Source: Pocillopora damicornis
Lineage: Eukaryota
Assembly (NCBI RefSeq): GCF_003704095.1
Contig: NW_020846987.1
Span: 62,001 to 125,497 of the forward strand
Direction: 5' to 3'
Length of the DNA stretch: 63,497 bases
In this document: positions 2,022-56,635 of the stretch, piece by piece
How positions within the stretch are numbered: position 1 is the stretch's first letter
Layout: the number at the start of each line of letters is the position of its first letter
Translations under genes and position numbers: made by a program
Notes under the pieces: model-generated
Told to the model about the DNA's origin: nothing
The model's database searches: none
What the model saw: only the letters and a program-made list of their open reading frames with translations

Positions 2022-17366
<15,345 letters not shown>

Positions 17367-24934: not shown

Positions 24935-27900
24935 TATCAAGAGGAGAATCTAATGGATTTTAACCTTGGAATATTACTTAGCACGTGAAGAAGCGTCCGC
25001 CATTGCTGCTTCTAAAGGATGCTGGGAAAGTACATGAAAAGAAAAATTAAGGAGTGGACTTTAGGGACCAACGGACTACACTCTGTCCCATTCGTTAAAC
25101 AATAACTGACTTGCCTCCAAGAAACATGATTGTTGCAGATCTACCAGCGGGCATAAAGTTCACTAAAGCATAGCTCACTGGCCATTCCGATTATTATTTT
25201 AAAAGGCACTTCTGTAGTTCTATGGGCCTCTCAACTTCAGTAGGTACTGGGGCCGGTCGAGAAAATAATTGATTCGAAGACTGTGCGTCACGAGAGAGAG
25301 CCAAATATTTTTCCCTACCTCTTGAACCAACCCGGTCAATAAAGATATTTTCATATGGCCACTCTTTCTCTTTCGACCCAGCACATTGCATTTTTTTCGA
25401 GCGAGACCGCACACAGGGCTATACGGCTTTTTGCGCCATCGCTTACTGTCTCTGTGAGACCGTAGAGGTTATTTCAAATGCATAGAATCTTTCAAAACGC
25501 ATCATTCTGAAAAGGCCTCATTCTTTGTGTTAACAGGTTAAAAACAGAGGCTTTTGAAAACGGTAGTCTATAAAGCGTCACATACGGTCGATTTTAGGAG
25601 CAGTTTCGGGCGTTGTAGCGTGAATGATTGGGAAAAAAGCATCAATAGTTCAAATTAAAAGTTAATTGTGAGGAAAGTTTAAAACTATACAAAAAATATT
25701 GCTTTGTTTAAGGTTACACGACACGGAATATTTCTGAAAACCAATCGCATTAAATTATCCTCAAATAAAATAAATTCGTCATGAAATATTTAACAATTAT
25801 TTCATGACCGCGCGTTGGATATGAGATGATAAATAGCCAACAAGGGACATAGAGCCAAGTTAACTTTCAACAATCTCGTGTCCAACAAGTGCGAATGGAA
25901 TAATTGTTTCATTAAATTTCGTTAAATCCTTAATATTTTGATAATTAGAGCCTTTTTTTTCTCTTCTCAACAATTAGCGCAATGTATTTCCGTATAAGGT
26001 GACCCGGATTATGAGCTAATAACCGGAATTGAGAGAACAAGTCAGAACACCAGAAATGTAATATCCGGAGTTGAAAATTTAATAATGACCATTAGCTTTT
26101 ATATTTGAATGCTAGATCACAAACTCTTTTTCGCGATCAAGAGTGCGTAAACCATTTTTCCTCATCCGTCCTTGGTATACATGTTGGTTTACGCAATTCT
26201 GTTCCCTGTTTGAGATTCATTCCATGTGATTATTGCGTTGGCATATCTCTCTCGGCGATTCATGCACAAATATTTAAAGTAGATCGAATGATCAAACGAT
26301 TCCTAGAATTTTAAAATAAATGATAAATGTTTGCTAGCACATTAGCGTGAGGGAATTTTTGTCTTAAAAAATATCAACAGTTGTTTCAAGGCAGCCGGCT
26401 GTAAACACAAAGACAGTGCTTGCTTTTAGTGTCAACATGATCGAAAATTGCGTTTAGGTTGTAATGACTCAATATTTGTAAATGCAAACACAACTGTTTA
26501 GAGAACTTATTTCTACTCCAGTCCCATTTATGTAAAGTCAGGTAGAAAAAACACAGTATACATGATTTATAGCGCTTCTTGGAGAAGGCTTTCCAGCTGA
26601 AATATTATGGATATATATTGAAAAATGCTAACGAATGCAAAATAGATGAGTTTAAAATTTAAATAAAATAATTTATCATTTCAATAATCGCACACCCGAT
26701 CTTAAAAAAGTCAAAGATCATCTAAATTTAGAAGCAAAGAAGGCAATTTCAGCCAATTTGACAACAATCTACTCTCTTCGGAACCCGTACAAATTAGGGT
26801 GGACTTTTAATGATACCCAAGTGCTCTTTGTGCGTGCAGTCCACATTTTAGTGAGAAACCACTTCGTTACTCAGGATTCAATCAGTTCGGTTTTACTCCT
26901 TCAAATGCTATAACACAAAAAGAGGAAAGAGGATACAGCCTAATTTCTCGTCCGTCTGGTCATCAAATAAAGAGAGATTTTAACAATTATTTGTCATGAT
27001 CGTGAGACAAGGAGTAAAACAGAGAAATTTTTTTTCGTCTTTAAACTCATTCCTATGAGGAATCGAACCTCTGACATATCTTCGATTATCGGGCTCCGAT
27101 GCTCTTCCATTAAGCTACAGAGACTCTATGCGTGTAAGTTACCAGGCGAATCCGAACTTCAAATGTCAGGATCTCGCACTCTGATGAACTACTACCAAGC
27201 TAGCTGCGGAGTACACGACAATTTGCTTGGCCTTTTTTACGTGACGCGGTCGAAAGCGTCGGATATAGAGAAAAAATTTGGAAGAAATATGGTAAATTTT
27301 GCGCTCGCGCGTCGAATTAAGAGATGTTTTAAACGTCTATCATATTACGCTTAAGACAATATGTCAACATCTTTTTATTTTAGGAACTAAGGATTTAATG
27401 CATAAATTCTTCAGTTGTATTTACTATTTGTTCAGTTTTGATTACCAAAAAAAAAAAGCCATTCTTCTAAGTGGAGGGGTCAACGCATCACTCACCCATA
27501 ACACTTTTTCCGTTTTATGTGAGTGTTTTCATTCCTTAGGCAATATTCGGTTAGAACAGCTTATAAAAAATACACAGAGAATATGCGGAAAATCTAAATT
27601 TGACTTGAATTGGCAACTGTTTGACGTACCTTGTTCTATAGGCCGAATGTCAATCTAAACCGTCCTAACCAATAAGATCACAGAGTATGGCAAAAATTCG
27701 CCATCAGTCACAAGCTTTAAGCCAATCAAATCACAGATCCAACATTACATAACTTGACAAGTCCTGTTTTTTCATTATTATTATTATTTTGCACTTGCAG
27801 GGTTCTGCATTTGCTGAGACGAATCTGTTTAACCTCAGAGTCAAGAATAACATTTCTTCGTAACTAGGTAGGTGACACATCTCTATTGCAAGAAAGCGTA

Positions 27901-28754
27901 TGGGTACAAGGATCTATCATAGTCAGGCTAAAGAATGTATCTGATTTTTTACTCAGACGCGATTTCTTTCTGGCACGTAGTATAATTAACTTTTTTTAAA
28001 TCGATGTAGCCCCCGAACACGGAAAAAATTAATTCAGTATTGACGAAACTTTGCACAGCTCTAAGTTTATTTCTTAGCGCTCTCCTGTAGTCACTATTCA
28101 AAAATACAAGTCGAAAGCAATGTTTAAGGATCGATTATGTCATAATTCTGAGTGGGTAGAATAATTCTTAAGACCTACTTATCAATTTTATTGGATGCTT
28201 AATGTTGCGAATGGGGTCTACAATTTTTTAATCAACAGTTTGTTCATGTTTCCTTTCAAGCGAGACATTCATGGTTGGCAGATTTTTAAGATAAATAGCC
28301 GAGTCGAGAAGTGTTTTGCGCATCTTTTCCAATGGTTTCTGCTTTATAAATAACAGACGAGGAATAACAATTTGTTATTTGGCACAAGCACTATGGTTGT
28401 AGACTTCAACAAGGACGAAATACATTTATAGCAATGGAGTGAACCCTTGAGTTCATACATAATCTATTCAGGAAGATGCCAATTAAGATATCTAATGACC
28501 CCAACTGCGTGTTTAAGAACGTTCTCACGATCTCGCCTCTAGCTGTCTCACTTCTCAAGTCCCAGATACCTTTTTTAAAGGCCTTGTCTCCTTAAAAGAA
28601 ACTGTTCTCGGAGATTTTGACCTAAGAATCACCCCATGCACTGCAGTCCTTTGACTCATTTATTAGATTGTTGAACTTTTGCTTATTCATCGCGTAGGGC
28701 TGAAAGCAAATAGAAGCCAGTTGTATTGTAGTCTGCACTTCTGCCGACGGAGAG

Positions 28755-28778
28755 ATGATCCATAAACTTCATTTGCTG
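28755..28778 (+). CDS. Start of another copy of the Gly-rich secreted protein (exon 1, cut by a gap)
   Basis: ATGATCCATAAACTTCATTTGCTG (MIHKLHLL), identical to 31176-31199 with near-identical upstream sequence; then N gap. Confidence 0.7.
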
Positions 28779-29599
28779 NNNNNNNNNNNNNNNNNNNNNN
28801 NNNNNNNNNNNNNNNNNNNNNNNNNNNNNNNNNNNNNNNNNNNNNNNNNNNNNNNNNNNNNNNNNNNNNNNNNNNNNNCGAGCCGAGAAATGTTTTGCGT
28901 ATTTTTTCCAATGGAAGACCCACTTATGAATATTATTGTATGTTTAATGTTGTGAATGAGGTCTACAATTTTTTTATCAACAGTTTTTTAATGTTTCCTT
29001 TCAAGCGAGACACTCATCATTCGCACACTTTTACGATTAGTAGCCGAGCCGAGAAGTGTTTTGCGTATTTTTTCCAATGGTTTCTGATTTATAAGTAACA
29101 GATGGAGGGTTAACAATTTGCTATTTGACACAAGTATTTTGGTTTGTACTCATCAACAAAGACAAAGTAGATTTATAACAATAGAGTGAACCCTTGAGTT
29201 CATACATAATCTGTTCAGGTAACTGTCAATTAAAATACCTAATAACCCCTACTGCGTGTTAAAGAACGTTCTCACGACATCACCTCTGGCTGTTACGCTT
29301 CTCAAGTCCCAGATACCTTTTTAAAGGCCCTGTCTCTTTAAAAGAAACTGTTTTCGGATGTTTTGACCTGAGAATCACCCAATGCACTGCATTCCTTTTA
29401 AATACAATCCAACCAATTGTTCATCAAGCCTATATAAAAGAAGGTTACAAAAACCTTTCAGAGGAAACCAAACGTGAAAAATAAGTCACAGCATTTTTTT
29501 AAGTTAAGTTGGAGAAAATCAAAATACAAAGCAGTTGATAAGTTGACACGTGAAAAATCCATAGGATAAACAAAAAAAACTATATCACTCTGTTCACTA

Positions 29600-31175: not shown

Positions 31176-34100
31176 ATGATCCATAAACTTCATTTGCTGC
31201 TGCTGTTGTTTTTATGGTTGGCATGTTCCATCCATTCGGTCAGTATTTCTTCATGTTGGTATGGCAGTTTTAAGTAGATCAATTAGGAAAAAGGTGACTT
31301 AAGAAAACTAAAACATGTGCTTACACAGTAATTTATTACATAACAGCCGTGTCTACGTGCTTTCATCTAATCACACTAGTCGACCATACGGGAGCGCAGC
31401 CGCCTTCTCAGATACTTATAAAACCGTAAGAAGAATTTAAGTATTGATCCCCTCCAGGGTTTGAAGGATAAACAGGAAGAAAAGAAATCAACGGCTTGAA
31501 TTTCCCTCACCTTCGAAAAGGTGCAACGCAGAAAATAGTACTAAACACGAACATAGTCATTGACCAAACGGAAAGGAAAATCTTGTTACGTACACAAGTG
31601 CAGTTGACGGTGTAGCACATGCTCACTGTGGTAGTTTGTAACTGTTGTATGTTAGCTCTCGATCGGCCCCTAATTATCGATCAGCGCTGAATGATGCATG
31701 TTTCTCCGCCCACGGAAAGATTTGAAACAGGTCGGAGAGAAGTTTGCCGGTGTTCTTGTCGGTGTGTGTAGTTCAGGGTCTCCTCGTGATTTCCCGCGAG
31801 CTAAGAAATGCCGGTTACTGCTCGCAGGATAGTTGTATATTTAAAAGTACACATACACATATTGTGCACACTTTTTCACAAAATAAACGAGAAAACACCT
31901 ATTTCTTTGTCTGTAGGGAGTCTTAGGATGTTCAGAGTGCACTGATGTTGAGAGTAAGTTATTTTCACTGTTTACTCGACTTTGGTCACAACGGAGAGGG
32001 ACTGGGTTAAGTTAGCACGACTACTTAGGCAAGCAAACTGAGAGATGTGAAAAATACACAAAGCTGTTTTTTCCCGCGGGAATTGGGTGGTAATAGTAGG
32101 GAGTTGTGGCATGATATTTTATGAGAAGACAANNNNNNNNNNNNNNNNNNNNNNNNNNNNNNNNNNNNNNNNNNNNNNNNNNNNNNNNNNNNNNNNNNNN
32201 NNNNNNNNNNNNNNNNNNNNNNNNNNNNNNNNATGTTGAGAGTAAGTTATTTTCACTGTCTACTCGACTTTGGTCATGACGGAGAGGGACTGGGTAAAGT
32301 TAGCACGACTACTTAGGCAAGCAAACTGAGAGATGTGAAAAATACACAAAGCTGTTTTTTCCGGAATTGGTTGGTAATAGTAGGGAGTTGTGGTATGATA
32401 TTTTATGAGAAGACAATAGATGGGTCTACGGAAAAGTGTGGGACATATTTTGGAATCTATCCGGCAATTCACATAGGACTAGATCTCAGATATGTTACAC
32501 CTCCTACTTGGGTAGATTCTACTTCTCGTATCTTATGGCGGGATGAAGTTTTCCCTGAATAATCTTTTTGTTTACAACATAGCAAATGGCTTTGTGTGCG
32601 ATGGAAAAACGGTCAACTTGTGTCAGACTGATCACTCGAAGTCGTGGAAAGTTGCCGTTATCACTCAAGACACCATGGATTTGTATTCATGTGACGGCCT
32701 GGAGGCTGGAGACAAACTCTTACTATTTGTTAGCAAAGGAAGACTGATCAATTATGGCAAGTATGAAGTGGTCACAGCACAAGACGTCACACCAATAGAT
32801 GGAGACGAAAAGTAAGAGTGAAAATTAGAGGAAACTTGTGGCCCAACTCTTTTTAGAGAACTACATATCTACATATATAGCTAACATTTTCAACATAGAC
32901 TCAGTAAATTTTGATTGCAAATAATTTACACTCAAACGTTTTAAGTGTCTAATACATTTCTCGAACGGATTCTGGCTTCTAACAAAGTAATGTGGACAAA
33001 CTGACCGACCATTGGATGACTGGATGACTAGCTGGCGGACTGTCTCACCGACTAACTGACTGACTGATTGATCAACCTACTGACTGACTGACTGACCGAC
33101 CAACCGACCAACCGACCGACCGACCGAGTGACTGACTGACTGACTGACCAACCTACTGACCGACGACTGTCCAACTGACTAACTGACTGACTATCTGAAT
33201 GACTGACCGACCAGCTGACCAACAGACTGACTGACTGACGACTGAGTGACTGACTGAAGACTGATTGACCACCTGACTGACTGACCGGCTGAATAACCGA
33301 CTGAATGAGAGAAGAACTGACTAACTTATTGAATAAAAAAATGATTAACTGACTGACTGACCATCAGAGTGACTAACCAACTAACTGACTGACTGATCGA
33401 CCAACTGACTGAAAGATAGAATAACCGAGTAACTGACTGAATGAATTAATGACAAAATAACTTACTAACTGACCAAACGGTTGTAGCTATAAAAATACCC
33501 TTGAATTCATGTTTTCATTTATTCGCCAACCCATCCATTCTTTAGTCCGTGTATAAATCACCAAATCAATAAGTAAACTAGTAATTTGCCATATCAATCC
33601 GTTAATCAATGCTTTCTATTTGTATGATTACAGATCACAATGCCGAGTTGTCTTTGACAAACCCATTACGATGGATCTTGAAAAGGACCATCTAACATGT
33701 TTGATCGCTCAAAGGCTTCCATCATTTGACAAAGTATCTTTACGTAACAAATGTGTCCTGACATGTGATGAACAGNNNNNNNNNNNNNNNNNNNNNNNNN
33801 NNNNNNNNNNNNNNNNNNNNNNNNNNNNNNNNNNNNNNNNNNNNNNNNNNNNNNNNNNNNNNNNNNNNNNNNNNNTTTGTGTGCGATGGAAAAACGGTCA
33901 ACTTGTGTCAGACTGATCATTCGAAGTCGTGGAAAGTTGCCGTTATCACTGAAGAAACCATGGATTTGTATTCATGTGACGGCCTGGAGGCTGGAGACAA
34001 ACTCTTACTATTTGTTAGCAAAGGAAGACTGATCAATTATGGGAAATATGAAGTGGTCACAGCACAAGACGTCACACCGATAGCTGGAGACGAAAAGTAA

Positions 34101-37100
34101 GAGTGAAAATTAGAGGAAACTTGTGGCCCAAATCTTTTTTGAGAACTACATACCTATATATATAGCTAACATTTTCAACATGATTATAGTAAATTTTGAT
34201 TGTAAATAATTTACACTTAAACGTTCTAAGTGTCTAATATATTTTCCGAATGGATTCTGGCTTCTGACAGAGTAATATGGACAAACTGAGCAACCACTGG
34301 ATGACTGAATGTCTAGCCGGCGGACTGACTCACCGACTAAGTGACTGAATGACTTTATGACAGAATAACTTACTAACTGACCAAACGGTTGCAGCTATAA
34401 AAATATCCTTGAAGTAATGTTTTCATCCTAGTTCTTTAGTTAATTAGTAATTTGCTATATCAGTCCATCAATCAGTGCCTTCTATTTGTATGATTACAGA
34501 TCACAATGCCGAGTTGTTTTTGACAAACCCATTACGATGAATCTTGAAAAGGACCACCTAACATGTTTGATCGCTCAAAGGCTTCCCTCATTTGACAAAG
34601 TATCTTTACGTAACAAATGTGTCCTGACATGTGATGAACAGAAAGATGGCCTTGGAGGAATTCTGGCCTTTGAGGCTGACAACCTGGTGATCGATAGTAC
34701 TTCCAAAATAGATATGACTGGAAAAGGTACGAGCATTTTAGAACTTCTCACACCTCTGTTTATGTCTCAGGTTGAAACAGGAATTATATTGGCACTGATT
34801 TGCGAATGAGTTATTCGCGATTTTTCTTCTAAAACATAACAGAGTAGAATATTATTTCTCGAATTTTCACAACAAAAGATTGATTTTCAGTTTGATCTTG
34901 AACGGCGAGTGCGGTATACTGTTGGTGGTCTACAGTTGAGTTTAAATTCATCGAGAGTATGATTGTAGAATAGTCCAAAAAAATAACGAAAGCTCTAACA
35001 AAATGAGGGCATGTGAAGGTTGTCTGAATCTGACCACCTTCAGTTTACTTAAAGAGCCACAAATTTTATGGTGTTTGCGCAAAACTAATAGCTGTTTTGA
35101 AGACTACGTCCAGGCTAAAACATTTTTTTCCTGGCAAAATTATTATAATTACTATTCTGATCCTGGCTCTAACAATCCTTGGAATCCTTTGGCTCCACCT
35201 GTACCTAGACAGCTTGTTCCCTTGATGTGCCATTATCATATCCTCTACATGTCGTATTCAGGNNNNNNNNNNNNNNNNNNNNNNNNNNNNNNNNNNNNNN
35301 NNNNNNNNNNNNNNNNNNNNNNNNNNNNNNNNNNNNNNNNNNNNNNNNNNNNNNNNNNNNNNATGGAGGAAAGGGAGGATCAGCTGGAAACGTAAGTCAT
35401 TAATTCTTATATGAATTGGTCGGAGTAAAAAACGTGTGAAGACAGAGCTTAGGTTACCATTGCGACCGTATGAGAAGACGCAAATATGCGTTTTTTACTT
35501 CAGCCTCCATCTACCTACTGGGTGCGTCCAATTTTTACTGACAAGAAACTGAAACTGACTTCTCTATCCATTGTAAGAACGAGTTTATTAAAGGCTTTCT
35601 TCCACCATTTTCATTCAGATTGGTATCCATGCTGGGGGTGGGGGTCAGTCGTCTTGCCCAGGAGGACATGGTGGCAATGGAGGAAGTGCGGGGAAATGGC
35701 CTCCTAATCAGGCTCCCCACTGCTACGACAAGTCAGCATCAGGTGGTAACGCAGGCTCATCTAGCTCTGGAGGTGGAGGAGGTAATTTTTAGGTCATGTT
35801 ACTTATACTGTGTAGTCCATTACACTGGAAAGCCTTTTAAGAGATGACGAAGGTTTACTTGCCTAATGCTATTTATAGCTTAAATCGTTATACTGTAATC
35901 AAGGTAATGGATGATATTGGTATTTTTTATTCGATTTTAAGGTGATTCTTGTGGCAATCATTACGGTGGAGGTGGTGGAGGAGGTCAGTAAACAATTCTT
36001 TTTGTGTTTTTCCTCAACGTGATCGAAACCAAGATACTTCAGTCAGCTCTATTGGTTAGATGTTGAATTTGAGGTCGAATGTGACTAGGGATTTGGGCTC
36101 AAGCATCCATAAGTAACATTTCGATTGAGCGCTGTAAAACAAAAGCAAAAGCAATAACAGCGTTCGATCGTAACAACAATAACAACACCCATGATCAAAT
36201 TGCAATTGGTTTTAGTTGTGCATCTGATTGGCTGAGAGAATGGCACGAGTTTTGTAGACCAATTAAAGAGCGAGGTGAAGGAAACCATTTGAAACCGTCG
36301 CAATTTCGGATTATCTTAACCATTGAAAGAGAGGTATGCTCCAGATAACATACAACTTTCATAACTCTTGGCCGGACTTTCAGCACAGTTAAAGACAATC
36401 TTTGAAAGGTTTAGATTCTCAAAATGCAGTCGATCTTGTAGTTTAGCGGCGGAGACAAAACCTAAATGATTTCTGGTATTATTTCTCTTCCAAATTGAGC
36501 GATCTTTGGTTTGTTGCCAAAGTGGACTATTTACGATCTTTTATATTTACGTCAACGTCTTAGATCTTTCATGGACTGAAATGACGAGGTTTTATGACAA
36601 ATTTCAATGTTTTCAAGCAAGGAGACTTCTATGAATGAATCTCTTACCCACCGCAAACTTAAGTGTTCTGGAGAAATTCGTTCTCTGTATAGATAAAAAA
36701 ATAAATAAATAACACATATGCAACTGACCTGGGAGCATTAATGACACCTTCAGGGTCCACGGGGGGCCGCTATTATTATGTTTATATTTAGGCGGACTCC
36801 AGTTTGGCCATACCAACTTCACGACTCACCTGAGCTACGGAGGGGGAGGTGGAGGGGGAGGAGCAAGTGCGTTCAGTGATGACCCCAACTCTGGAGGAAA
36901 AGGAGGAAGTGGAGGAGGGCTGGTGTATTTACAGGTTGGGAAACTGGAACTACGAGGGACCATCAGTGTAAAAGGTATGAACCAGAAAAGCATAAAACCC
37001 ACCCCTCCCTCCCGAAGTCTCAACCCTTTAGCTCCCAGAAGCGATTAACAAGTAACTTCCATGTATTATTCATACATTACCCAGTAGACAGGTAATGAGA

Positions 37101-42600: not shown

Positions 42601-42664
42601 AGGTGGAGGTGGTGGTATCGGACGCTGGGTTGTACAGGAAGGTCAATCCACCCATCACAGCTAA
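39614..42664 (+). CDS. Secreted glycine-rich protein, copy 2 (C-terminal exons only; 5' part lost in a gap)
   Basis: Exons gap-39658, 39883-40045, 40193-40234, 40980-41162, ~41688-41855, 42603-42664, paralogous to copy 1 with intact frame and a few substitutions (IGTHA vs IGIHA, FRDDPNPG vs FSDDPNSG, NRKRHR vs NQKGHR). Confidence 0.82.
42236..42353. repeat. Perfect 57-bp inverted repeat with a 4-nt GCGA loop
   Basis: Left arm 42236-42292 (atattatgagagg...gtttcgtgaa), loop 42293-42296, right arm 42297-42353 is the exact reverse complement. Confidence 0.95.
42299..42470 (+). ncRNA. Hammerhead-ribozyme-containing retrozyme/Penelope-like monomer (170 nt), circularly permuted
   Basis: 3' half CAC-GAAAC-AGGCTT-GTC-GGGAAATGTA at 42299-42325; 5' half TATATATCCC-CTGATGA-GTGCTA-aatgttgtgg-TAGCA at 42433-42470. 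Both core boxes (CUGAUGA, GAAA), a GUC cleavage triplet and stems I-III can be paired by eye. Confidence 0.72.
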
Positions 42665-44863: not shown

Positions 44864-45928
44864 TTATAGGTCGACAATTTCAGGTCCTTGATATTCATGC
44901 TTCATTCTTTCTTTTACCATGGTAACACTGTTCATAAGCTCCTCCATGCTCGGTCGCTGATCGGGGTCACCTTTGACGCAATCACGAATCGTGGCTTTAA
45001 GCTCGTCAGAGAAATTTTCATTGATATCTGGAGGCGGTCTGCCCTCCATAATGTTTGCCAGAGCAGTAAACATGTCATTCCCTTCAACTTGATAGGCGGG
45101 TTCAAGTGCTGTGATCTCGTACAGTAAACATCCAAGAAGCCACACCTGGCTTTCGGGGCCAAAGGCGTGTCCTTTCATGACCTCCGGGGGTGAATAGAAC
45201 CCCGCTCCATCAACCCTGACATCAGGGTCATTCATCGTATCCTCCGGGGATGATTGGTACAGCAAACCACTGTCTAATTTGAGGTTTCCATGTTCGTCGA
45301 AGGAAATACGCTTCGTCGCTTTAGCAGTCTTGTAGAAAATGCCTTTCTCATTCAGATACTTCATAGCGGAGCACAATTCGCAAAACGCTTTCCATATCAA
45401 GTACTCGGGCAAATGCCTCCGTAGTTCTCGCCGCTCCCTGATAATATCCTCCAGTGAAACTGGAGGGTATTCGAATACAATTATTTCCGTACCACCTTGA
45501 TGAAAGCGCAGAAAACTACGCATGATATTTGGATGGTTGACATCTTTCCAAGCTTCCATAGCGGCCTGAAAATGATCATCTACTAGACAAGGCATGACGC
45601 ACTTAAGCAATACCTCTGACATGTCCAGAAGACACTTAGCAGGATAAACGCAATTCAACATGTTCTCTGAGCTCAAGTTATTTCGGTTTACAAAGAAATC
45701 GTCCACAGTGAGCTGATTGGCTAGATAGTTGATCATTGTCTTTGGAATTGGAAGATCTACGATGCGCGCTAGTCGTTTCAAACCCACAGCTTGTAGAATG
45801 AATGTGCGGCAGTGTTGTTGGAGGGAGCCTGGTTGAGGGTCGAAAGAGGAGAACGCTCCCTCCGGGTTCAGAATGTTAAATCTTGCTTGGTCTGTGGACG
45901 AGTCCTGCAAACGCGTTCTTCTCGCCAT
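44864..45928 (-). CDS. Intronless SOCS-box + NEK6/7-like pseudokinase (354 aa)
   Basis: Single ORF. aa ~33-70 [31 protein letters not shown] fits SOCS box (BC box + LPxP cullin box). Kinase fold: [69 protein letters not shown]. Gly loop absent, HRD replaced by FYKT, DFG/DLG region reads LDSG. Confidence 0.88.
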
Positions 45929-46813
45929 ATGTTAGATATCGGTCAGCTTTCTTAGCTGGTACGCGCACAGACTTCGAATCATGTGCTCGCGTTAATTGAA
46001 AACCTCATCAATACATTTAAGCAATTAATTAGCTTTGTGCGTCAAGATGGCATTCGAATGCCGGAAGCTTTGTAAAGCTTGCCGCACTTCAAAGAGCTAA
46101 AAGCAATTTGAGTCAGTTTTAGCCGTCGGAAGGCCTACCAAAAAATGAAAAGAACCACTGATGAAAAAAGGGCCTTCGGCGCGAAATACTTGCTACTACA
46201 ATCTAAAAGATATATATATTTATCATTCTTGAAATCATCTTTCTTGCGTTACTTTATCTACGAGCACTAACACTACCTAACAAGCGATGTTTTGAAGATT
46301 TTAGATATATGAATTTCATATATATAGATAGATATATGAATTTCATATATTTGCACGGAATTTCGTATATTTGCCCGCACGGGCCTTTTCTTATTGCGAT
46401 AGATGTGGATAGTTATTGCATATGCGCACTAGCAAAACAATAAATCACATTCGAACCTATTTTAGGCGGTCACCCACGGGGAACGGCGGAGCGACCGCTA
46501 AATACAGGTTGACGGCTTAATACCGGTTTCATAGAAAAGGGTTATTGTAAAAAAACGATAAAAATCGGCATTTTATGTCATAACGGAACACTTAATGTAC
46601 CACAACTTGCTCAAAAATACTAATTACATTGATTTCGGCATATAAACATAATTTTACTTTAAAGATCATTCTTAGTTTGATTTGAGTGGTTCCACTTTAG
46701 GTAAACATTCATTACAGGTAGAGGGCAATACAAACAGACCATTGGGACTCAGTGAAGGTTGACCAAAATTGCTACATAGAGGTGACCGCTTAATAAAATC
46801 AAAATTACAGGAA

Positions 46814-47024
46814 TTAACCCATTAACTCCCAAGATCTCAACAGTAATTCTCCTTACTGTCTGCCAAACAATTCTCATCATGTTAGTTTGGAGAATTTGGT
46901 ATCAGATCAATTAGTAATCCCATAATTGATATTTTTCTTAATTCTCATCATATGTCTACATGATATTGTATAGGTACAGTGAGGAGAAATTCTGTCTTAG
47001 TCATTCACAGGAGTTAAGGGGTTA
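46814..47024 (-). mobile_element. TTAA-type MITE nested in another dispersed repeat (~46455-47090)
   Basis: ttaacccattaactcccaagatc ... ggagttaaggggttaa; both flanks carry gaccgcttaata/ttaatacagg motifs. Confidence 0.75.
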
Positions 47025-47628
47025 AAGGGTATAAATTATGGGACTTAGAAAACCGACAGCTTAATATGTTGCCATTTAATACAGGGTTGACTGCAGTTGA
47101 ATGGAAAGCATGCATTGATACCATAGGGTTGGAGAGTCCTGCAAAATTCTAGAACAAAAATTTTAAAAACTTTTTACAGTGGCCAGTTTACATAATCAAA
47201 TCAGTTAATACAACCAAATTACTTTGTAATGTCCCCACCAATGCAGCAACTCTTTAGAAACTTACACCCTTGAACTGAAGATAGTTCAGAACACAGTTTT
47301 GTCAAAAAACGGCAAAATTTTATTGGAAAAAAATTCTATGCGTTATTTTATGCATACATGGAATATTCACTAAAAATTGTGACTAGATGTCCATTTTTTT
47401 CTGATTCAAGTCATGTAAAGTATGTTGAAAGCATTACAATTTTTTTTTTAAGTGTAGAACAAAATGAGGTGTAGAAAGAATGTGTTTGGTGATAATATAT
47501 TATCATCAGTAAAAACTAGGAATGTCTCTCAAGTCATAAGTTAATTGGAATGATTTCACACACTTTAGGATAAAGTAAAGTTTTACCTTCGCATGCACCA
47601 GTATGAACAAATAGAGACCAAAAGGTTT

Positions 47629-50299
47629 CTATCTCCAGAAAGGTCTTTTGTTATTCTGCAATCTCTGAAGACATCTTTGAGAACAAATAAAACTCTCTGC
47701 TGGAATGTGGCTTTGTGTAGGACAAGCAGACACAACTGTATGAGCTAGCTGATGAATATTGATAGTTATAATGTGGTGGACACACGATGTGAAGCAGTAG
47801 TTTCCACAAAAACACTGTTTTGCTGTGTCCAGAAATACACATAGAGAGGATGGAATGAGTTGTTTGAAGTATGCACACCTGCCGGAAGAAGAGAAGAGAT
47901 TGGTAGTCAGAAAAGTTGCTGCAAAAGAGGAGTTTGTATTTCAATGTGGAGACACATGACCAGTGGCTGTGACTATTTTCTGTGACAAACTTTTCTGTCT
48001 GAAAAAGTTCCTATGACTTATTTTAGTGCTGTCTCACTAAACCTTTTAACTCCCAGAAGTGATTAATATGCAACCTCTTCCTTTAATATCCATACATTAC
48101 CCAGCAAACAGGTACTGAGAATACTCAAACTTATCAGGTAGAAATTGCTACCTTGATCTAACACTAAATTCTCTGAACTGATTAAAAAGGAAATGTTTGG
48201 CTGTTAGAAGGGAGAATTAACAGTCAGATCTTGGTAGTTTAAAGGAGCCAAATTGGATGTGGTTGTCTGGGGTATCCTGAGGCTTCAACTGTGGAATACC
48301 ACCCTCATGGCTGGCAAACCCCTGCAACTCTGTCCTGAGGCCTCATAAACCTCAGCAGTAATAACTTCTCACTAACCTGAGTGAGAGGTCTGAACTGGAG
48401 AATTTTGGCCCATTTTATTTACAGACCATGTACAGCAGCATGGTCTGTACAAAAACAACTGAGGGCCAATTTCTCCAAGTACAGCTCATATAAGCAAGGT
48501 TAGTTAGAAGTTAATTACAAACTTGTTTATTATGAATTTTCCAGCTTTCACCAACAAAAATATACCAGATATACAGTTTGTTCATATGGCAAAATCCTGA
48601 ACAAAGTAAGAACTTATTAGAATGCCAAGAATTAATTCAGAACTATCTTTCCATATAATAAAAATAACAGGAAATTCTCAATGAAATTTCAAGATCACTT
48701 GTTAGTAATACTCACTTGTGCTTCTTGACAGCAATTCCTGCACATTCCTTCAATGATGGAACAGCCAATTTGCTAACGTTGTACCACTTATCCTGAGCTA
48801 AAAATGGGTTTGCAGATACATCAATGGAATCCAATTTTAACTTGGATAGGCTGTAAGGTAAGACCTTTAGCTGGTTGTGACTGGCAGAGAGGAATCTCAG
48901 ATGTGAAAGACTTCCAGTATTTATTGGTAACATGTGAAGACTGTTCTTATCAAGTTTTAAATGAACAAGGTTCTTTAAGTTACAGAATGTCACAGGTAAA
49001 AGCTTTATTTCATTTTGACTGAGATCTAAGAGCTTCAAGGATGATGTCAAGCTTCCAGAACACAACAAAGATGGAAATTCCCTGATCCGATTGCCATGCA
49101 AAATTAGCTCTGATAATGTTGAGAAACTGGCCAGTCTGCAAGGGATTGCCCTCACTTGATTGTCAGCAACATTCAAACATGACAAGCTCTTCATTTGTAA
49201 AATGCGTGCCTCAATACGCACAATTCCACAGTTGTTTACAGTCAACTTGTCAAGCTTACTTAGAAATGGCTTTCCAAGAGGATAATCTGCTCTACGTTTG
49301 ATCACCATTTCAGTTTTGGGCTTTTCTATTTCAGAGATCTTTGCAGGAACCAGACAGGATAGGTTGACATTTTCCAATGCTTTATCTCCAAGCTTGAGTA
49401 AAGATAAAAATGTTTTCAGACTTGATGGGTCAGCCTGTTGACAAAGTAAACAACAAATGATACAAGGGAATGAAAAAATTAACTTAGTAATTCCCCATAG
49501 TTTCTTGGTGCTAAGGATGGAGGGGAAATGAAAAGAATTGAAAAGAAACTTCAGAACAATTAAACTACTGTTCAACACAACAGCTGATGAACAATATGCT
49601 TTCGACATCAGGAAACATTGTTATAGACATTCTGAAGCTACTAATTCGTTGGATTGATCAAAATCAAGTCATCTAATAGGACATCTGCAATCATTTTCTT
49701 TACACCCCCTTCCTTATTCTCTTCTCGTAACCCCATCCCCTCTTCCACCCTATGCGCTAAATCAGAGACTACTTTTTGCATATTCGGCAGTCAATACCTT
49801 GTTGATGAAGAGGTCGTGTGGAGGTTCTTTAAAGCGAATCGTAGCTTTGCCTTTTTCGAGAAACTTGGAGAAGACCTGCTGCAGGTTTTCTTTGATCTGT
49901 AACGAGTTCAAAGGATCGATAACAAATAAAAATCATCGAAATAATACTTGTACTTGTACTATCAAGCTACAATAAATGTACTACATGTATCAAAAACTAA
50001 GTAAAAGCTCAGTGCATAATCGAAAAAAAAATTAAAAATCACACAAAATGCAGTCAAATTTATAAGGAAGAGAATGCTCAAATTTAGCAGCCTCGCACAC
50101 CACACACCTTGTATTTAGCTCCATTCCTCTCTTTTGCTGTACAAACTAAAAGAAACACGTTCTTTCCTCTCTCATCGTCAAGTTTCGAAGAATCTTTTCG
50201 CCCGATTGCTAAAGAGGCGCGCGCAGGCTTGCTTGCATTTCGCACGTTGTGAGAAGCAGCTATACGATTTACGATCGATATTTCACAGTTTATACGCAT
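47629..50299 (-). CDS. LRR1: Leucine-rich repeat protein 1 (PPIL5), CRL2 substrate receptor
   Basis: Exons 50299-50108, 49896-49798, 49434-48716, 47878-47629 in phase. N-term [48 protein letters not shown]; LRRs ([40 protein letters not shown]); BC box VPSLKECAG; Cys-rich C-term CFCGNYC..CSQRC. Confidence 0.92.
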
Positions 50300-50530: not shown

Positions 50531-53500
50531 ATGGCTAGTATGGAAACACCAAATACCGTATTTGTTCAGATTACAAGCTCAGTGACCTCTTTTACATCGG
50601 AAAAGAGGCTTCAGAGAAACGAAACAATTTCTCTTCTGAAGGTTTGTTCAAATCGCAAGTTACTCATTTTTAGTGAACAAAAACTTAGCTTGAATTCCAA
50701 CAAAATCGCCCTTTATGTCACCCTGCTTTGGATCGTCGTTACTTCAGTGGTTTTCGTTGATGTTTGCTTGTATACTAAACGATTTCGAAGCTGGAAACAG
50801 ATAACGAAATGAATGTTTTAAGTTAATATATTAAATCAGCACAAATAAGTAACTGATTTTATTTTAGACACAGTATGAAAGTATTTCGTTATGCAATTAT
50901 AAACAATTTCTCGAACATGATATGATAAATCACATTTGGAGGTTCTGACTTGATTTTTGGTTTAAAAAATATACTGAACACATTTTTGGATTTCTATCAT
51001 AATAATTGTTTTTTTTGTAGGGAAAATTGGAGCTAATCACTGGCTGCTCTGCAATGACAATGGAAGTTCAATTATTGGACAAAGAAGGGAAATTTCTTTG
51101 TATTCTCAACAACGAAGATGCTATGTTGGGTGCCTATCCAGTTGATGACAATATGAGACTGCATGTAGGTATATTTACTTGAATTATTTTTGTAGATGTT
51201 GTACTAAGTAGCCCCCTGGTAATATTAAGCCACTGTGTAGAGGATTAACACAACTGTTTAAACAGTCATGATAGTTGATGATAGTTGTGATGGTTTCAAC
51301 TTTCATTCACTCTCATTGACTATCATGGTTGCATTCAAACAGTTCATGGCAGTCTCCTTGACATTCTCTTTACCCACACAAATCTGGCCAAGGGTAAGGA
51401 ACAGACCTCCCTGTGTTGTGGTCTGGCCTTGTTATTGTTTACATAGGCCTCCAATCAGCCTGTCTTAATGTCGCAAGTACATACATATATACTAGTGCTT
51501 GATTTTTCTTGAATTTTCCTTCTCAAGGTTGTTGATAAAGATCCCTCTAAAAAGGCCGGTGAATTTGAAGATTTATCAGCTGTGGAAAAGTATGAGATGA
51601 GCACAGAAGATTACTCTAAAAGATCTGGTAAGCTGAACTAGTAGAGCTTCTAAAAGGTGGTGCCCAGAATCTTAAATCAAGTAATAGCTTACCAACAACC
51701 TGCTAGTAACTATAGAACATTTCTATACACCACCAGTAAACCTTAAACAATGGACCAACAATTCTGCAGTTAAAAAAAAGAGTGATGGGTCATGTTGGCT
51801 GTGTTCAAGACCTTGTTGAACTTTTGATTATCTTGTCAATTTGACTTGGGCAAAAAAAAAAGGTGTTTAATTGTCTTATGTTCTCTAAAAATGCAGAAGA
51901 TATTAGACTCCGTGACATTTCTTTTTCAAGTATATGCACCTTTCATGGGTCGGAATAACCCTTTACACCCTTTTCTCCCTACTGTTCTCCATGCATTTCT
52001 TAAGGTGTTGACAGGGAGAATTTGTTTAACAATCACAATCTGCTTTAGTTGGTGATCATTTCCTTTACTCTCGTGACCTTAAAGTTTGGTTCAGGGGTGA
52101 TATTGTAAGGAGAAATTAGATGCTAATCATGATAGGTAAGTACAGAATAACCGATAAACTAGACCTACTGGTGTAACTTTTCTTGATTGTCCAAGAATTA
52201 ACTATTTGTATTTCAGATTCGGTAAGAGCCTTCAAACAAAAAAACAAGTTGGGCCAGTTTAAAGAGAAAACTCCTGAAGAAATTGAAGAAGAGAAAGAGA
52301 AAGAACGACAAGAAGAAACTGCCGCAAAAGCAATCACTGTTGGTTCTCGATGTGAAGTCACAGTCAGTAATGCTCCTGCTAGAAGGGGTGTAGTCATGTT
52401 TGTAGGTAAGACTTTTGCATTGGGTATCATACATGTTTTTGCAAAAGGTTAGTCCTGACAGGGCCTCAAGTTTTTACAACCTGAGCCATTGTTATCATCA
52501 GAGTGGAGTGAAGAGGTCTTAAGATTAGTCAAGTGATTCAAGTTTNNNNNNNNNNNNNNNNNNNNNNNNNNNNNNNNNNNNNNNNNNNNNNNNNNNNNNN
52601 NNNNNNNNNNNNNNNNNNNNNNNNNNNNNNNNNNNNNNNNNNNNNCAGCTTCTACCTGATAAGTTCAAATATTCTCATTACCTGTTTACTGAATAATGTA
52701 TGGATTTTATAGGGAGAATTTTCATGTGAATCACCTCTGGAAGTTAAAGGGTTGAGTCCCGTGAGTGATCAAGACAGAATTTCACCTTAAAATTTATCCA
52801 TACAATATCAAGGAGACAAGTGATGAGAATAAAGAAAAGTATTAATTGGGGGATTATTAGTTGATCCAATAACAAATTCTCCAAATTAACATCACAAGAA
52901 TTATATGGCAGACAGTAAGGAGAATTGCTAATGAGATCTTTTAAGGGGTTAGTATTCAAGACAGGGTTATTACAAAACAACCTCTTTTCAGGCTCAATAG
53001 TTTTTATAAGTGCTCAACATCTAAGGCAGTAAACAAATTTAATATGAATAAGAGTTGCTATGAAAGGTGATGAACAATGCCATGCCCATTCAACATGTTC
53101 AGATTTGGAAGTTGTTAAGCTGTGATTTCAATTCCATTCTTCAGCAATGGCCAAAGATTGTAATTCTCATTTCTCCTTTTTAGGGCAAACAAACTTCAAA
53201 CCTGGCTGGTGGGTTGGGGTTAAATATGATGAACCTTTTGGAAAAAATGACGGCAGGTATTGAACTTTAATTTTTAAAATTTTTTATTTATGTCTTGATT
53301 TAAATCTGTCATGGCTACATTTCAATGAGATTGTACATGTCTGCAGGTGTAGTTTGAGTGAAGTTCAAAAATAGTTTAATTTGAAGTTTGGTCCTCAGCC
53401 AAATTATGATCTTAAGTTTATCAATCAAGGTGAAAGGATAAAATAATTGTTTTAGTGGGTTTTGAAAACTTTTCAATTGGTGTTGAAAAAAATCAACAAT

Positions 53501-54077: not shown

Positions 54078-54661
54078 ACTATGAACATGTCCCAGATTCA
54101 ACCCTCTTTGCTTCTTTAACATGCAAGGGGGGCATTTGAGTTTAAGTTTGCATTAAGAAGGCCACTTGTGTTTCAGTCTGGAGTGAAGCAATTGTAAGAT
54201 AGTGATAATTGACGTCATAATCATTGCCTTGATAGCATTGATGTGCTCACTGTCTGTTACTTATTTCAAGTTTTGGATCGGAAAATCTTGAGAGATTCAG
54301 GAACAGATGATGGATTACTGAATTTTTTTTATTATAAGGCACGTCATTTACTGGGTTGCATCTCATAGCCAAGTATCTTTGCACAACTATATATAATTAA
54401 GCCAAATTTCCCCCACAATTTACCTGGTTTTAAGTTAAAAAAAAAAAACATAAGTTAGGACATGTTGGCCATTGACTTTCTTAACTTGGTGGTTCTGAAA
54501 AGGCAATTCTCCTTGACCGCTAAAAATATTGATTATTTAGTTGATCAAGACTGTTCAGAAAAAGGCTACCTTTGTAAATGAAAAGCTCATCTAGTGAATA
54601 CCACAATCTTGTCTCAAGAGGGTCAAATAGTTTACAATACACTTAACATAGCATTAGTTCT

Positions 54662-54872
54662 TTAACCCTTTAACTCCCAAGATCTCACTAGTAACTCTCC
54701 TTACTGTCTGTCATACAGTTTTTGTGATGTTAGTTTGGAGAATTTGGTATTGGATCAACTTATAATCCCCTAATTGATATTTTCTTTATTCTCATCACTC
54801 GTCTGCTTGATATTGTATTGATATTGTAAGGAGAAATTTGGTCCTAGTCACTCATGAGAGTTAAAGGGTTAA
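54662..54872 (-). mobile_element. Best-preserved piggyBac-like MITE (TTAA flanks, CCC..GGG termini)
   Basis: TTAA-CCCTTTAACTC...GAGTTAAAGGG-TTAA, 211 bp including both TTAA; no ORF. Confidence 0.82.
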
Positions 54873-55829
54873 GAAAATTATTATAGTTATCATAATTTCA
54901 TTATTCATGAAAATTTCTCTTTATCACATAATTCAGTTTTAAACTTTTAAATGGAAAAGTGAGTGTGCAATGTAAAATAGGTAATTTACATGTAAAGATA
55001 CCAACACTGGTAAATAGAACAAAAATATACTAAAACATCCTGTGTATTTGGTTCAAGCACTAACCCTGGACAATCTTTTAATGTCAATATTCCAAAGTTA
55101 TTCTCCATACTCCTCTCAATACACATTTTTGTTGTTGACAAGGAGAATTTGAAAATAGTGTAATTGTTGCAGGAAGAGTAAAGTATAGTATTTACTGAAA
55201 CAAATATTCACCTCAGTGTTGGTAGTTTGCAGTGGATATTTACTTTGTCACTTTATTCCTCTGAAAATATCCACCACAAGTGACCTCCACTTTGGTGAGT
55301 AGTCGTTAAATACAACAGAATATTACTGTAAATATCAGTTATAATTTTTAGGGCTTTAGGACTTTTAGCCTTTATCAAGGACATAACAGGTTTTAGGATA
55401 GTGTTTGATTCAGCATTTTTTTTTTTAACCATTTAACTGATAAAACTGAAACAACATCAATATTTTGAACGTTTTCAACCAAAGAAGTGCACACTGTCTA
55501 CTGTATTTATTACAGCTATGCAACAGTTTAAATAAATCACGATTACAGTTTGGCTTTCAGCGACTTTTTGAGAGTAATAAATCTTCCTTGTAGATACCCT
55601 TGGTGGATTGATAGGCCACGGTAGGCTTATTTATAGATTGGGTTTACAACAACTACAATGAAGCATGTGTGCAAAAGTTAACTTTTAGTTGAAACACTTT
55701 CCTCAGCTTACGATTTTGAAGTAGCCCTGCAGCTGGTAGAGGAAGCTAAGCTTTGAATCTTAGTTTCGTCCAATATTGGCAAGATGTAAAGTCAATTATT
55801 TTGTTTTAAAACATAACAAAATATTTATA

Positions 55830-56360
55830 TTAACATTCTACCCCAAATTTATCAAAGTTTCTCGTTATCACGCCTAATTGCAAATGTATCGAGCCCATGG
55901 CAATCGTTCTCAATTTATATCGGTCTCCACCAGTGTAGATAACATCTGAAGTCTTTAACTGTGGTGCACCGCCGACAAAAAAGCTACGAAGCTGTTCTGA
56001 CTTGCTCGAACCGAGAGGTCGCCATGTCACGCAATCAACGTTGTGAGTTCCAGGTGATGTTGGCACATGGCAGTAACCATAACCATAAATCTCGTTTCGT
56101 CCATTAGAGTCTTGGTGCCAAACTTGGAAATGAAACTTTGGCCATCCTTTCAGTCCTTTGGTCGCAAAATGCAAGTCTATGGGATGGCACCATCGTGCAC
56201 AATCCTCGTTCTGGGGGTTGTCCACTTGCGTTTGGCCCTCTTTTTGTCCAGCTAAAAGTTTCCACAAACCGTCAACATGGACAGACCATTTGCAGTATAA
56301 ATTATGTGAGGGGAACCCGCTTGCACCGATGATTTCACCTATAACATGTACTTCCGCCAT
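55830..56360 (-). CDS. B9D2: B9 domain-containing protein 2 (ciliary transition zone), intronless
   Basis: 176-aa ORF: [75 protein letters not shown]. Confidence 0.97.
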
Positions 56361-56635
56361 TGCCGTTTACTCAGCAAAACATTTAGCAACGGAAAAATGA
56401 CGGAAAATCTAAACATGGCGGGCTCTATACTACGCATGCTTAAATTGCGCCCGCAATGCGTCAGCACAAAAGATGGCGGCAAAAGTTTAAATTTTTCCCT
56501 CGGAGATGTTAGTTCATGTGAATCCTGCGTGTGTAAAGGCAATTTTGACGAGCTAAACCTTCTTTTGCTGTGTTTCTTGAGAAAAAAAATTTAAGGCATC
56601 CAACGAGCATATAAAGCCCAAAAAGAGGTAGCCCC
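56361..56635. promoter_or_regulatory. Putative bidirectional promoter B9D2/TDP1
   Basis: 275 bp between divergent ATGs; two YY1-like motifs (aacatggcgg ~56412, aagatggcggc ~56470). Confidence 0.6.

What the first reader, a model, noticed from the sequence alone, without database searches (positions are those of the whole stretch)
31176..42664. Intron-rich secreted polyglycine protein with bacterial/phage-type architecture: candidate domesticated horizontal transfer
Seen: signal peptide, Cys-containing N-domain, then LEAGDKLLL..GKYEVV..AQRLPSFDKVSL..VLTC....DGLGGILAF....IDMTGKG, followed by GGxGG runs alternating with short beta-strands (GGGLVYLQVGKLELRGTISVKG; GGSGAGGSVVIF; ISVSGG; GGGGGIGRW). 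From memory, this order matches the 'Q-R-V-P..WDG..GGI..F..IDA.GKG' + 'GGGII.I.A..I...I.ANG' Gly-rich domain of bacterial surface proteins (myxobacterial AgmC-like, Bacteroidetes secreted proteins) and some phage structural proteins. Established: GGX-rich tracts form polyglycine-II bundles in ALK/LTK and phage gp38 adhesins. Inference: a stand-alone secreted version with ~10 spliceosomal exons suggests an old transfer, now amplified, possibly acting in mucus, skeleton or microbe binding.
Basis: partly seen in the sequence, partly recalled or inferred. Interest (0 to 1): 0.72.

Follow-up and report, generated by a model that had tools for sequence, protein, structure and literature searches.

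The report
Coral glycine-bundle protein from myxobacteria
Stony corals and sea anemones carry a spliced, expressed gene for a glycine-rich, likely secreted protein whose closest non-animal relatives found are surface proteins of uncultured myxobacteria-type bacteria, so it was likely taken from a bacterium long ago and is predicted to serve as a soluble binding (adhesin-like) protein.

Summary
Real. The region holds interleaved, gap-broken pieces of two tandem paralogs (not one gene) of an 11-exon, 510-aa Pocillopora gene; six splice joints are seen in RNA. Named animal relatives are only Scleractinia and Actiniaria. The whole ~470-aa domain matches bacterial surface proteins beyond glycine: 245 bits against a maximum of 43 in 200 glycine-fixed shuffles; the low-glycine part alone gives E 6e-14. 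The hexacoral clade is sister (99/97) to a subfamily from one Myxococcota-type class (29 of 182 genomes) and shares four cysteines and an acidic loop with it. AU tests of nesting are borderline (p 0.04, 0.11, 0.19). AlphaFold gives an ordered fold (pLDDT 90): beta-barrel, short beta-helix and a glycine block likely forming a polyglycine-II bundle. It is related to AgmC_N but is not AgmC, and no phage sequence relative was found. Best reading: an old horizontal transfer of an adhesin-tip domain, now spliced, shuffled with PAN/EGF/TSP1/F5-8C modules and tandem-amplified. Function is inferred, not shown.

The parts
28755..28778 (+). Start of exon 1 of a second copy, cut by a gap
31176..31238 (+). 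Exon 1, signal-peptide-like leader (aa 1-21)
31917..31953 (+). Exon 2 (aa 22-34); the tail of a second copy lies at 32233-32246 after a gap
   Evidence: matches P0001
32583..32811 (+). Exon 3, type A (aa 34-110; first beta-helix rung and beta-barrel)
33634..33775 (+). Exon 4, type A, 3' end cut by a gap
33876..34096 (+). Exon 3, type B, 5' end cut by a gap
34500..34726 (+). Exon 4, type B (aa 110-186; end of barrel, beta-helix)
35263..35362 (.). Assembly gap; exon 5 (aa ~186-244) and most of exon 6 are missing here and at 39514-39613
   Evidence: (loose RNA end at 34727)
35363..35391 (+). 3' end of exon 6, type A
35619..35781 (+). Exon 7, type A (aa 306-360, glycine block)
35942..35983 (+). 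Exon 8, type A
36792..36974 (+). Exon 9, type A (aa 374-435)
37494..37661 (+). Exon 10, type A (aa 435-491)
38408..38469 (+). Exon 11 with stop, type A
39256..39513 (.). Spacer after copy A that matches the sequence upstream of exon 1 (29410-29654): head-to-tail junction
39614..39658 (+). 3' end of exon 6, type B
39883..40045 (+). Exon 7, type B
40193..40234 (+). Exon 8, type B
40980..41162 (+). Exon 9, type B
41688..41855 (+). Exon 10, type B
42603..42664 (+). Exon 11 with stop, type B (last copy of the array)

Best explanation
This is a spliced, expressed, tandem-duplicated hexacoral gene for a likely secreted 510-aa protein whose single large domain was likely acquired once from a Myxococcota-type bacterium before stony corals and sea anemones split, and which is predicted to work as a soluble adhesin-like binding protein. 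Shown: gene structure, splicing, paralogy, whole-domain homology to bacterial proteins, and the sister position to one Myxococcota-type subfamily. Predicted: a fold of beta-barrel (aa 49-140), a short beta-helix built from both ends of the chain, and an ordered ~230-aa glycine block that likely packs as a polyglycine-II bundle. Inferred mechanism: in the bacteria the domain sits at the N-terminal tip of long stalked surface proteins with a MYXO-CTERM anchor; the animal kept only the tip, added a leader, eight further cysteines and animal recognition modules, and releases it outside the cell. There the rigid bundle would present conserved loops, above all the acidic D262-x3-N-x-D-D-G loop (a likely Ca2+ site), to bind a glycan or surface ligand on microbes, mucus or matrix. 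Odds: bacterial origin 0.85; Myxococcota-type donor 0.7; binding or adhesin role 0.55.
For: Homology beyond glycine: L020 245 bits against a shuffled maximum of 42.5 (n=200); the aa 33-185 profile alone gives E 5.6e-14 at library scale; HHalign prob. 100 over 434 columns. Tree of 52 rows x 416 columns: hexacorals 100/100, with the core bacterial clade 99/97; the same grouping on 278 non-glycine columns, SH-aLRT 99 and 96 under C20. Shared characters: 21 against 2 of 137 sites favour the core clade; C292, C318 and C363 in 12-13 of 13 core rows but 1 of 43 distant rows; D..DD loop in 9 of 9 hexacoral and 25 of 25 Myxococcota-type rows. Donor: 17 of 401 genomes of the phylum and 29 of 182 of one class match; the EF-Tu and NusG clusters of G053 carry the names Myxococcota/Deltaproteobacteria; G001 has 43 MYXO-CTERM hits, one on the homolog itself. 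Host integration: GT..AG introns shared with the C1129 paralog, GC3 0.41 against 0.38-0.50 in three neighbours and 0.93 in L020, metazoan-type neighbours, dN/dS 0.17 between the copies. Anemones (98/95) and corals (92/58) separate in the tree. Fold: pLDDT 90.3, pTM 0.88; the bacterial domain gives the same pattern, pLDDT 89.6. Fusions with PAN-EGF, TSP1 and F5/8C-Sushi in animals, and LamG, PKD and Fn3 in prokaryotes.
Against: AU tests of the tree with all Myxococcota-type rows held together gave p 0.188 (32 rows, non-glycine columns), 0.109 (32 rows, all columns) and 0.041 (52 rows), all under LG+G4, so nesting is weakly shown. The hexacoral stem is long (0.5-1.6) and letter make-up differs between groups. 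I sampled the donor phylum on purpose, and the core set was first defined by likeness to the coral. Most prokaryote-type hits have no taxon name, and NCBI labels some core records Proteobacteria. I saw only 150 of 222 library hits; two word searches scored only ~8,000 candidates each, so distant eukaryotic relatives may be missed. A prasinovirus protein matches the fold (TMq 0.54, E 4e-18), and the nearest Atlas clusters include Uroviricota and Bacteroidota. The PGII geometry could not be inspected; gp38 matches are only Z 6.2-6.7 and were not listed for the bacterial domain. No ligand, tissue or localisation data.
Confidence: 0.6

Rival explanations
1. Same bacterial origin, but the protein is a structural or matrix component (mucus, mesoglea, cnidocyst wall or skeletal organic matrix) rather than a ligand binder.
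For: 38% glycine over aa 186-500, up to 17 cysteines, secretion leader, high RNA contig depths on exons (these cannot rank expression), acidic loop that could bind calcium.
Against: The glycine block is predicted to be folded and compact, not elastomeric; loop residues are conserved back to bacteria; skeleton-less anemones have the gene. Supplement searches of two skeletal and one venom proteome paper were uninformative.
Confidence: 0.22
2. The domain is ancient, was present in early eukaryotes or animals, and was lost everywhere except Hexacorallia; likeness to Myxococcota reflects slow change or long-branch effects.
For: AU not significant in 2 of 3 tests; long stem; incomplete view of eukaryotes.
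Against: No named non-hexacoral eukaryote; 97 of 97 short library hits are closer to named hexacoral proteins than to the nine bacterial ones tested; subfamily-specific cysteines and loops are shared with one bacterial class.
Confidence: 0.1
3. The gene came through a virus (prasinovirus-like or phage) or from another prokaryote, not directly from Myxococcota.
For: Best BFVD fold matches are prasinovirus proteins; a Uroviricota cluster scores 0.93 in the Atlas; the wider domain family occurs in archaeal and small-genome bacterial records.
Against: Those viral matches are 19-20% identical; no viral sequence hit (BLAST masking weakens these); tree and shared sites point to the Myxococcota-type subfamily.
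Confidence: 0.07
4. Bacterial contamination, or a duplication made only by the assembler from two alleles.
For: Every duplicated block touches a 100-N gap and pieces alternate A/B; this was my first reading of the duplicates.
Against: Spliced RNA, host GC3, orthologs in many species. Type-A and type-B residues recur as separate genes on one contig in P. verrucosa and P. meandrina; dS 0.11; head-to-tail spacer.
Confidence: 0.01

Closest known systems
AgmC N-terminal domain (NCBIfam NF047640, gliding_AgmC_N)
   Same: Same domain superfamily: 10 of 12 hexacoral proteins and 18 of 25 prokaryote-type hits match the profile.
   Different: Far below the cut-off (23 against 275 bits for P0001; best prokaryote row 115); a separate subfamily; no stalk or anchor in the coral protein. 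No paper holding AgmC + Myxococcus + gliding was found.
Uncharacterised Myxococcota-type surface proteins (e.g. L020/G053, P0010, P0011, P0013, P0014)
   Same: Whole domain colinear; 41-43% identity in alignment A2, 24-27% at non-glycine sites for 12 of 14 core rows; four cysteines and the acidic loop; same predicted fold for the part folded.
   Different: Bacterial proteins add a MopE/TSP3/PKD/Ig stalk and, where checked, MYXO-CTERM; coral forms have introns, eight extra conserved cysteines and animal modules.
Phage gp38 adhesin (6F45, 9V85) and other glycine-rich PPII bundles (ALK/LTK, springtail antifreeze protein, PE_PGRS)
   Same: Short beta-helix with an inserted glycine block; VIA Z 6.2 (rmsd 5.8, 133 aligned) and 6.7 (rmsd 3.8, 134 aligned). 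Known bundles as listed in PMC13243192 (passages).
   Different: No sequence match; Z within background; the coral protein is twice as long and adds a beta-barrel.
Known horizontal transfers into Anthozoa (PMC4878875, Table 1) and teneurins (PMC13018210)
   Same: Bacterial gene fixed in an anthozoan ancestor; teneurins are a bacterial surface protein turned animal adhesion protein (abstract start only).
   Different: The 41 listed events are mostly enzymes; none is named glycine-rich, but three are 'predicted/hypothetical protein' and I could not exclude that one is this gene.

Membership tests
AgmC (NF047640) | Score above the curated cut-off of 275 bits | tested here: not met
   23 bits for P0001, 21.7 for P0006
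AgmC_N-like domain superfamily | Colinear barrel + beta-helix + glycine block with non-glycine homology | tested here: met
Glycine-rich PPII (PGII) bundle proteins | Long glycine tracts that are ordered but neither alpha nor beta | tested here: met
   aa 186-415: block pLDDT mostly 83-98 (one block 65), no helix or strand of 3+ residues; same in the bacterial model
Glycine-rich PPII (PGII) bundle proteins | PPII backbone angles and bundle packing | not testable with these tools
Glycine-rich PPII (PGII) bundle proteins | Structural match to gp38, ALK/LTK or springtail AFP | tested here: inconclusive
   gp38 Z 6.2-6.7; 7JJV and 9V85 only at Foldseek E 5.7-8.8
Domesticated bacterial transfer | Integrated in the host genome (introns, host neighbours, host codon use, expression) | tested here: met
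Domesticated bacterial transfer | Animal clade nested among bacterial sequences with support | tested here: inconclusive
   99/97 support but AU p 0.041, 0.109, 0.188; no root
Domesticated bacterial transfer | Absent from other eukaryotes | tested here: inconclusive
   None named; searches capped, 150 of 222 hits seen
Phage structural protein family | Sequence match to phage families or genomes | tested here: inconclusive
PE_PGRS (automatic database name) | N-terminal PE domain | tested here: not met
   No PE or other Pfam hit for P0001 or P0002; only a sub-threshold unrelated hit for P0006
Coral skeletal organic matrix or mucus protein | Peptides in skeleton or mucus proteomes | tested here: inconclusive
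   Term searches of supplements of PMC9532382 and PMC7115838 found nothing, but the rows shown list names rather than sequences and the ortholog accessions were unknown

The most novel reading that the evidence does not exclude
Hexacorals captured the tip domain of a myxobacterial surface adhesin and turned it into a lineage-specific family of secreted, calcium-dependent microbe-recognition proteins built on a large polyglycine-II bundle, a fold with no close solved structure; tandem paralogs that differ in charge (net -7 for type A against +1 for type B) would tune which microbes the coral surface binds.
Probability: 0.25. Interest if true: 0.85.

Novelty: new variant of a known kind. Interest (0 to 1): 0.62.

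Why it matters
Reported transfers into corals are mostly metabolic or repair enzymes (PMC4878875, Table 1). This would be a bacterial cell-surface domain kept across stony corals and anemones, shuffled with animal extracellular modules and amplified. The family has no Pfam model and is hidden under misleading names (loricrin-like, PE-PGRS-like, cell-wall protein), and ordinary BLAST masks it (3% coverage for a full-length bacterial homolog). It offers a compact, soluble, high-confidence target for a PGII bundle structure and a testable candidate for how corals and Nematostella handle surface microbes.

Tried and rejected
First reading that the duplicated blocks are haplotype artefacts: rejected. 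Pfam on five single exons and on P0001: nothing. PHROGs: nothing. PDB by sequence: only glycine linkers. Genome and viral scans with the coral protein first: 0 confirmed of 604 and 627 pattern matches, probably from masking; viral scan with a bacterial alignment: 0 of 635; phage tblastn: none. Phylum of G003: 0 of 301 at E<=1e-10, but G003 itself did not ring, so this shows little. Foldseek PDB: only partial barrel matches to GH110 and depolymerases (TMq <=0.18); no enzyme function is inferred from them. VIA-align found no whole-protein match above background (best Z 9.1 and 8.3, beta-helix only). The careful C20 tree did not finish (quick trees reported); those place hexacorals inside the core set next to L020 (92, 89), whereas the all-column trees make them sister to it, so the exact donor branch is unresolved. 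Literature searches found no paper on this family: (six accessions, 0 papers); the library lacks most subscription journals. The cell-atlas supplement (PMC8162421) was not seen because the paper reader was closed, so cell-type expression stays open. No complex prediction was run because no partner is claimed. Earlier scan notes: none found.


Full report
1. What is in the window. The quoted motifs lie in + strand exons with GT..AG ends. A search with exon 4 returned a complete 510-aa product, P0001, 99% identical over the exon, on a 1,737-nt contig; its 90% cluster holds Pocillopora verrucosa and P. meandrina proteins. Mapping P0001 back shows that aa 186-290 fall in assembly gaps, and RNA contigs leave the window at 34727 into exactly that missing sequence. 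Six joints were seen in 1 to 4 of 4 RNA runs from four studies. The gene has 11 coding exons, judged from the paralog at G000:C1129:656.7-663.4 kb, which has the same intron positions in the shared domain, and from single-exon hits.

2. One gene or two. Exons 3-4 and 6-11 occur twice, each block beside a 100-N gap. I first took this for two alleles. But the copies differ at residues that recur as separate genes in other species: E62, E63, N124, K335, K384, R402 and R445 mark type B (P. verrucosa XP_058956721 and XP_066026040, P. meandrina CAH3145250), while the other copy carries type-A states. P. verrucosa lists three such models on one 25.7-Mb contig and P. meandrina four on one 3.1-Mb contig. 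Between the window copies dS is 0.11 and dN/dS 0.17 (24 synonymous and 14 non-synonymous changes over 330 codons). Sequence behind copy A matches sequence upstream of exon 1, and a second exon-1 start lies at 28755. The locus is therefore a tandem array of at least two paralogs whose contigs were interleaved; a model spliced straight through 31176-42664 would be chimeric. Searches of G000 with exons 3, 4 and 10 found only this locus and C1129.

3. Animal range. Named relatives: Pocillopora, Oculina, Montipora, Acropora, Porites, Desmophyllum, Actinia, Actinostola and Nematostella, all Hexacorallia. Of the 150 best of 222 library hits, 97 are fragments under 200 aa; 97 of 97 score better against named hexacoral proteins than against nine bacterial ones, and 91 of 97 are at least 65% identical. 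Anemone proteins and one coral paralog carry PAN-EGF in front; others carry TSP1 repeats or F5/8C-Sushi. The stand-alone form is a scleractinian clade (100/99). No transmembrane segment follows the leader.

4. Bacterial relatives. The best non-animal hits cover most of the domain at E 5e-49 to 8e-38. This is not a glycine artefact: with glycines fixed and other residues shuffled 200 times, L020 drops from 245 bits to at most 42.5, and four other rows behave alike; a profile of aa 33-185 (7% glycine) alone gives E 5.6e-14. Non-glycine identity to P0001 is 24-27% for 12 of 14 core rows, 20% for the other two, 21-23% for four outer rows and 13-20% for the rest (75 of 87 domain rows kept, 12 near-duplicates dropped). 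A GTDB scan gave three loci; G001 has 43 MYXO-CTERM matches, one at the end of the homolog, against 0 in 14 control genomes. In its phylum 17 of 401 genomes match, and in the class of G053 29 of 182; every core locus taken from a genome belongs to that class. The EF-Tu and NusG clusters of G053 carry the names Myxococcota and Deltaproteobacteria, with one Pseudomonadota label; those of G140 gave no taxon. NCBI labels G001's record 'proteobacterium' and P0073 'Alphaproteobacteria'; I read these as loose MAG labels, which is inference. More distant relatives, one named Elusimicrobiota and one locus archaeal, often carry LamG, DUF2341 or Fn3.

5. Tree. With 52 rows (9 hexacoral, 21 core, 4 outer, 18 of 43 distant) and 416 columns, hexacorals are one clade (100/100), sister to the core clade (97/92), together 99/97, with outer Myxococcota-type rows next and the rest beyond (100/97); the bootstrap had not fully settled. 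Non-glycine columns give the same grouping (99; 96 under C20). At 137 hexacoral-conserved non-glycine sites, 21 are shared with the core set only and 2 with the distant set only. Against this: AU p is 0.041, 0.109 and 0.188, the stem is long, there is no root, and sampling favoured the donor phylum. Inside the animal clade anemones and corals separate, which fits one entry before their split and vertical descent since. GC3 is host-like.

6. Fold. AlphaFold2 with 47 sequences: pLDDT 90.3, pTM 0.88. Residues 49-140 form a beta-barrel like EF-Tu domain II or the inserted barrels of GH110 enzymes (Z 6-9, rmsd 2-3); strands from both ends form a short beta-helix like those of pertactin or FHA (Z about 9); gp38 adhesins align over most of the chain at Z 6.2-6.7. 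Residues 186-415 are confidently placed yet have no helix or strand, as expected of a PPII/PGII bundle; I could not measure the angles. The bacterial domain without its barrel folds the same way. The closest whole-chain match is a predicted prasinovirus protein (TMq 0.54). No solved structure covers the protein.

7. Mechanism. Shown: secretion-type leader, no anchor, conserved fold pattern, conserved acidic loop. Inferred from architecture: in the bacteria the domain lies at the far end of stalked, anchored surface proteins, the usual place of an adhesin's binding head (established pattern, recalled); PPII bundles in gp38, ALK and PE_PGRS33 sit in receptor- or ligand-binding parts (PMC13243192, passages; the binding roles partly recalled); animal fusions are with recognition modules. 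I therefore favour a soluble binding protein, with the D-x3-N-x-D-D-G loop as a likely calcium site, at about 0.55; a matrix role is the main rival. No catalytic signature was found. Type B is about 8 charges more basic than type A and lacks the single N-glycosylation sequon, a hint of divergence in use.

8. Known or new. It is related to AgmC_N but fails the family cut-off; it has no Pfam domain; database names are automatic and misleading. Nine paper searches showed no description of the family. Papers seen: PMC4878875 passages and Results with Table 1 (three unnamed entries cannot be excluded); PMC13243192 passages; PMC9532382, PMC7115838 and PMC5762905 supplement term searches only; PMC13018210, PMC8162421 and PMC4321713 listing and abstract start only. 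Unseen supplements of cell atlases and proteomes may hold expression data that bear on function. Verdict: real, a likely old transfer of an undescribed surface domain, new variant of a known kind, interest 0.62.

Noticed in passing
window 24949-23570 (- strand); fragments at 15911-15669, 29824-29600, 39513-39256: A neighbouring gene with a hydrophobic leader and no Pfam hit; pieces of its first exon are carried in the repeat unit of the tandem array, so the duplication breakpoint lies inside it.
   Followed up: partly
window 14958-16724, 27404-28778, 28915-31199: Upstream blocks repeated three to four times at 85-93% identity, hinting at more than two copies of the gene in the true array.
   Followed up: partly
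G000:C1129:656708-663429 (-) and 663794-664418 (-): PAN-EGF-domain paralog with the same introns; just upstream lie two more diverged exon-like matches that may be a relic copy.
   Followed up: partly
window 44867-45931 (-): Single long frame encoding a SOCS box followed by a protein kinase domain, an unusual order.
   Followed up: no
window 48715-49620 (-), 55833-56366 (-), 6787-10447 (+): LRR protein and B9-C2 protein, and exons that look like protein kinase D (recalled): ordinary animal neighbours.
   Followed up: partly
window 4717-4912, 8831-9043, 46814-47027, 52757-52951, 54661-54883, 58032-58258: A ~200-bp dispersed repeat in both orientations, 76-90% alike; probably a small mobile element.
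   Followed up: no
P0172 (Nematostella LOC116618188 isoform X1): The model ends in a PF03556 domain, probably a read-through of two genes in the annotation.
   Followed up: no
BFVD A0A7S6NY19 and A0A6H1QWC9: Prasinovirus proteins share the overall predicted fold, so the domain may have moved into algal viruses separately.
   Followed up: no
L007 (G002), L009 (G003): The wider domain family occurs in an archaeal record and, twice in one protein, in a 1.4-Mb genome, i.e. it is a widespread unannotated surface module.
   Followed up: partly
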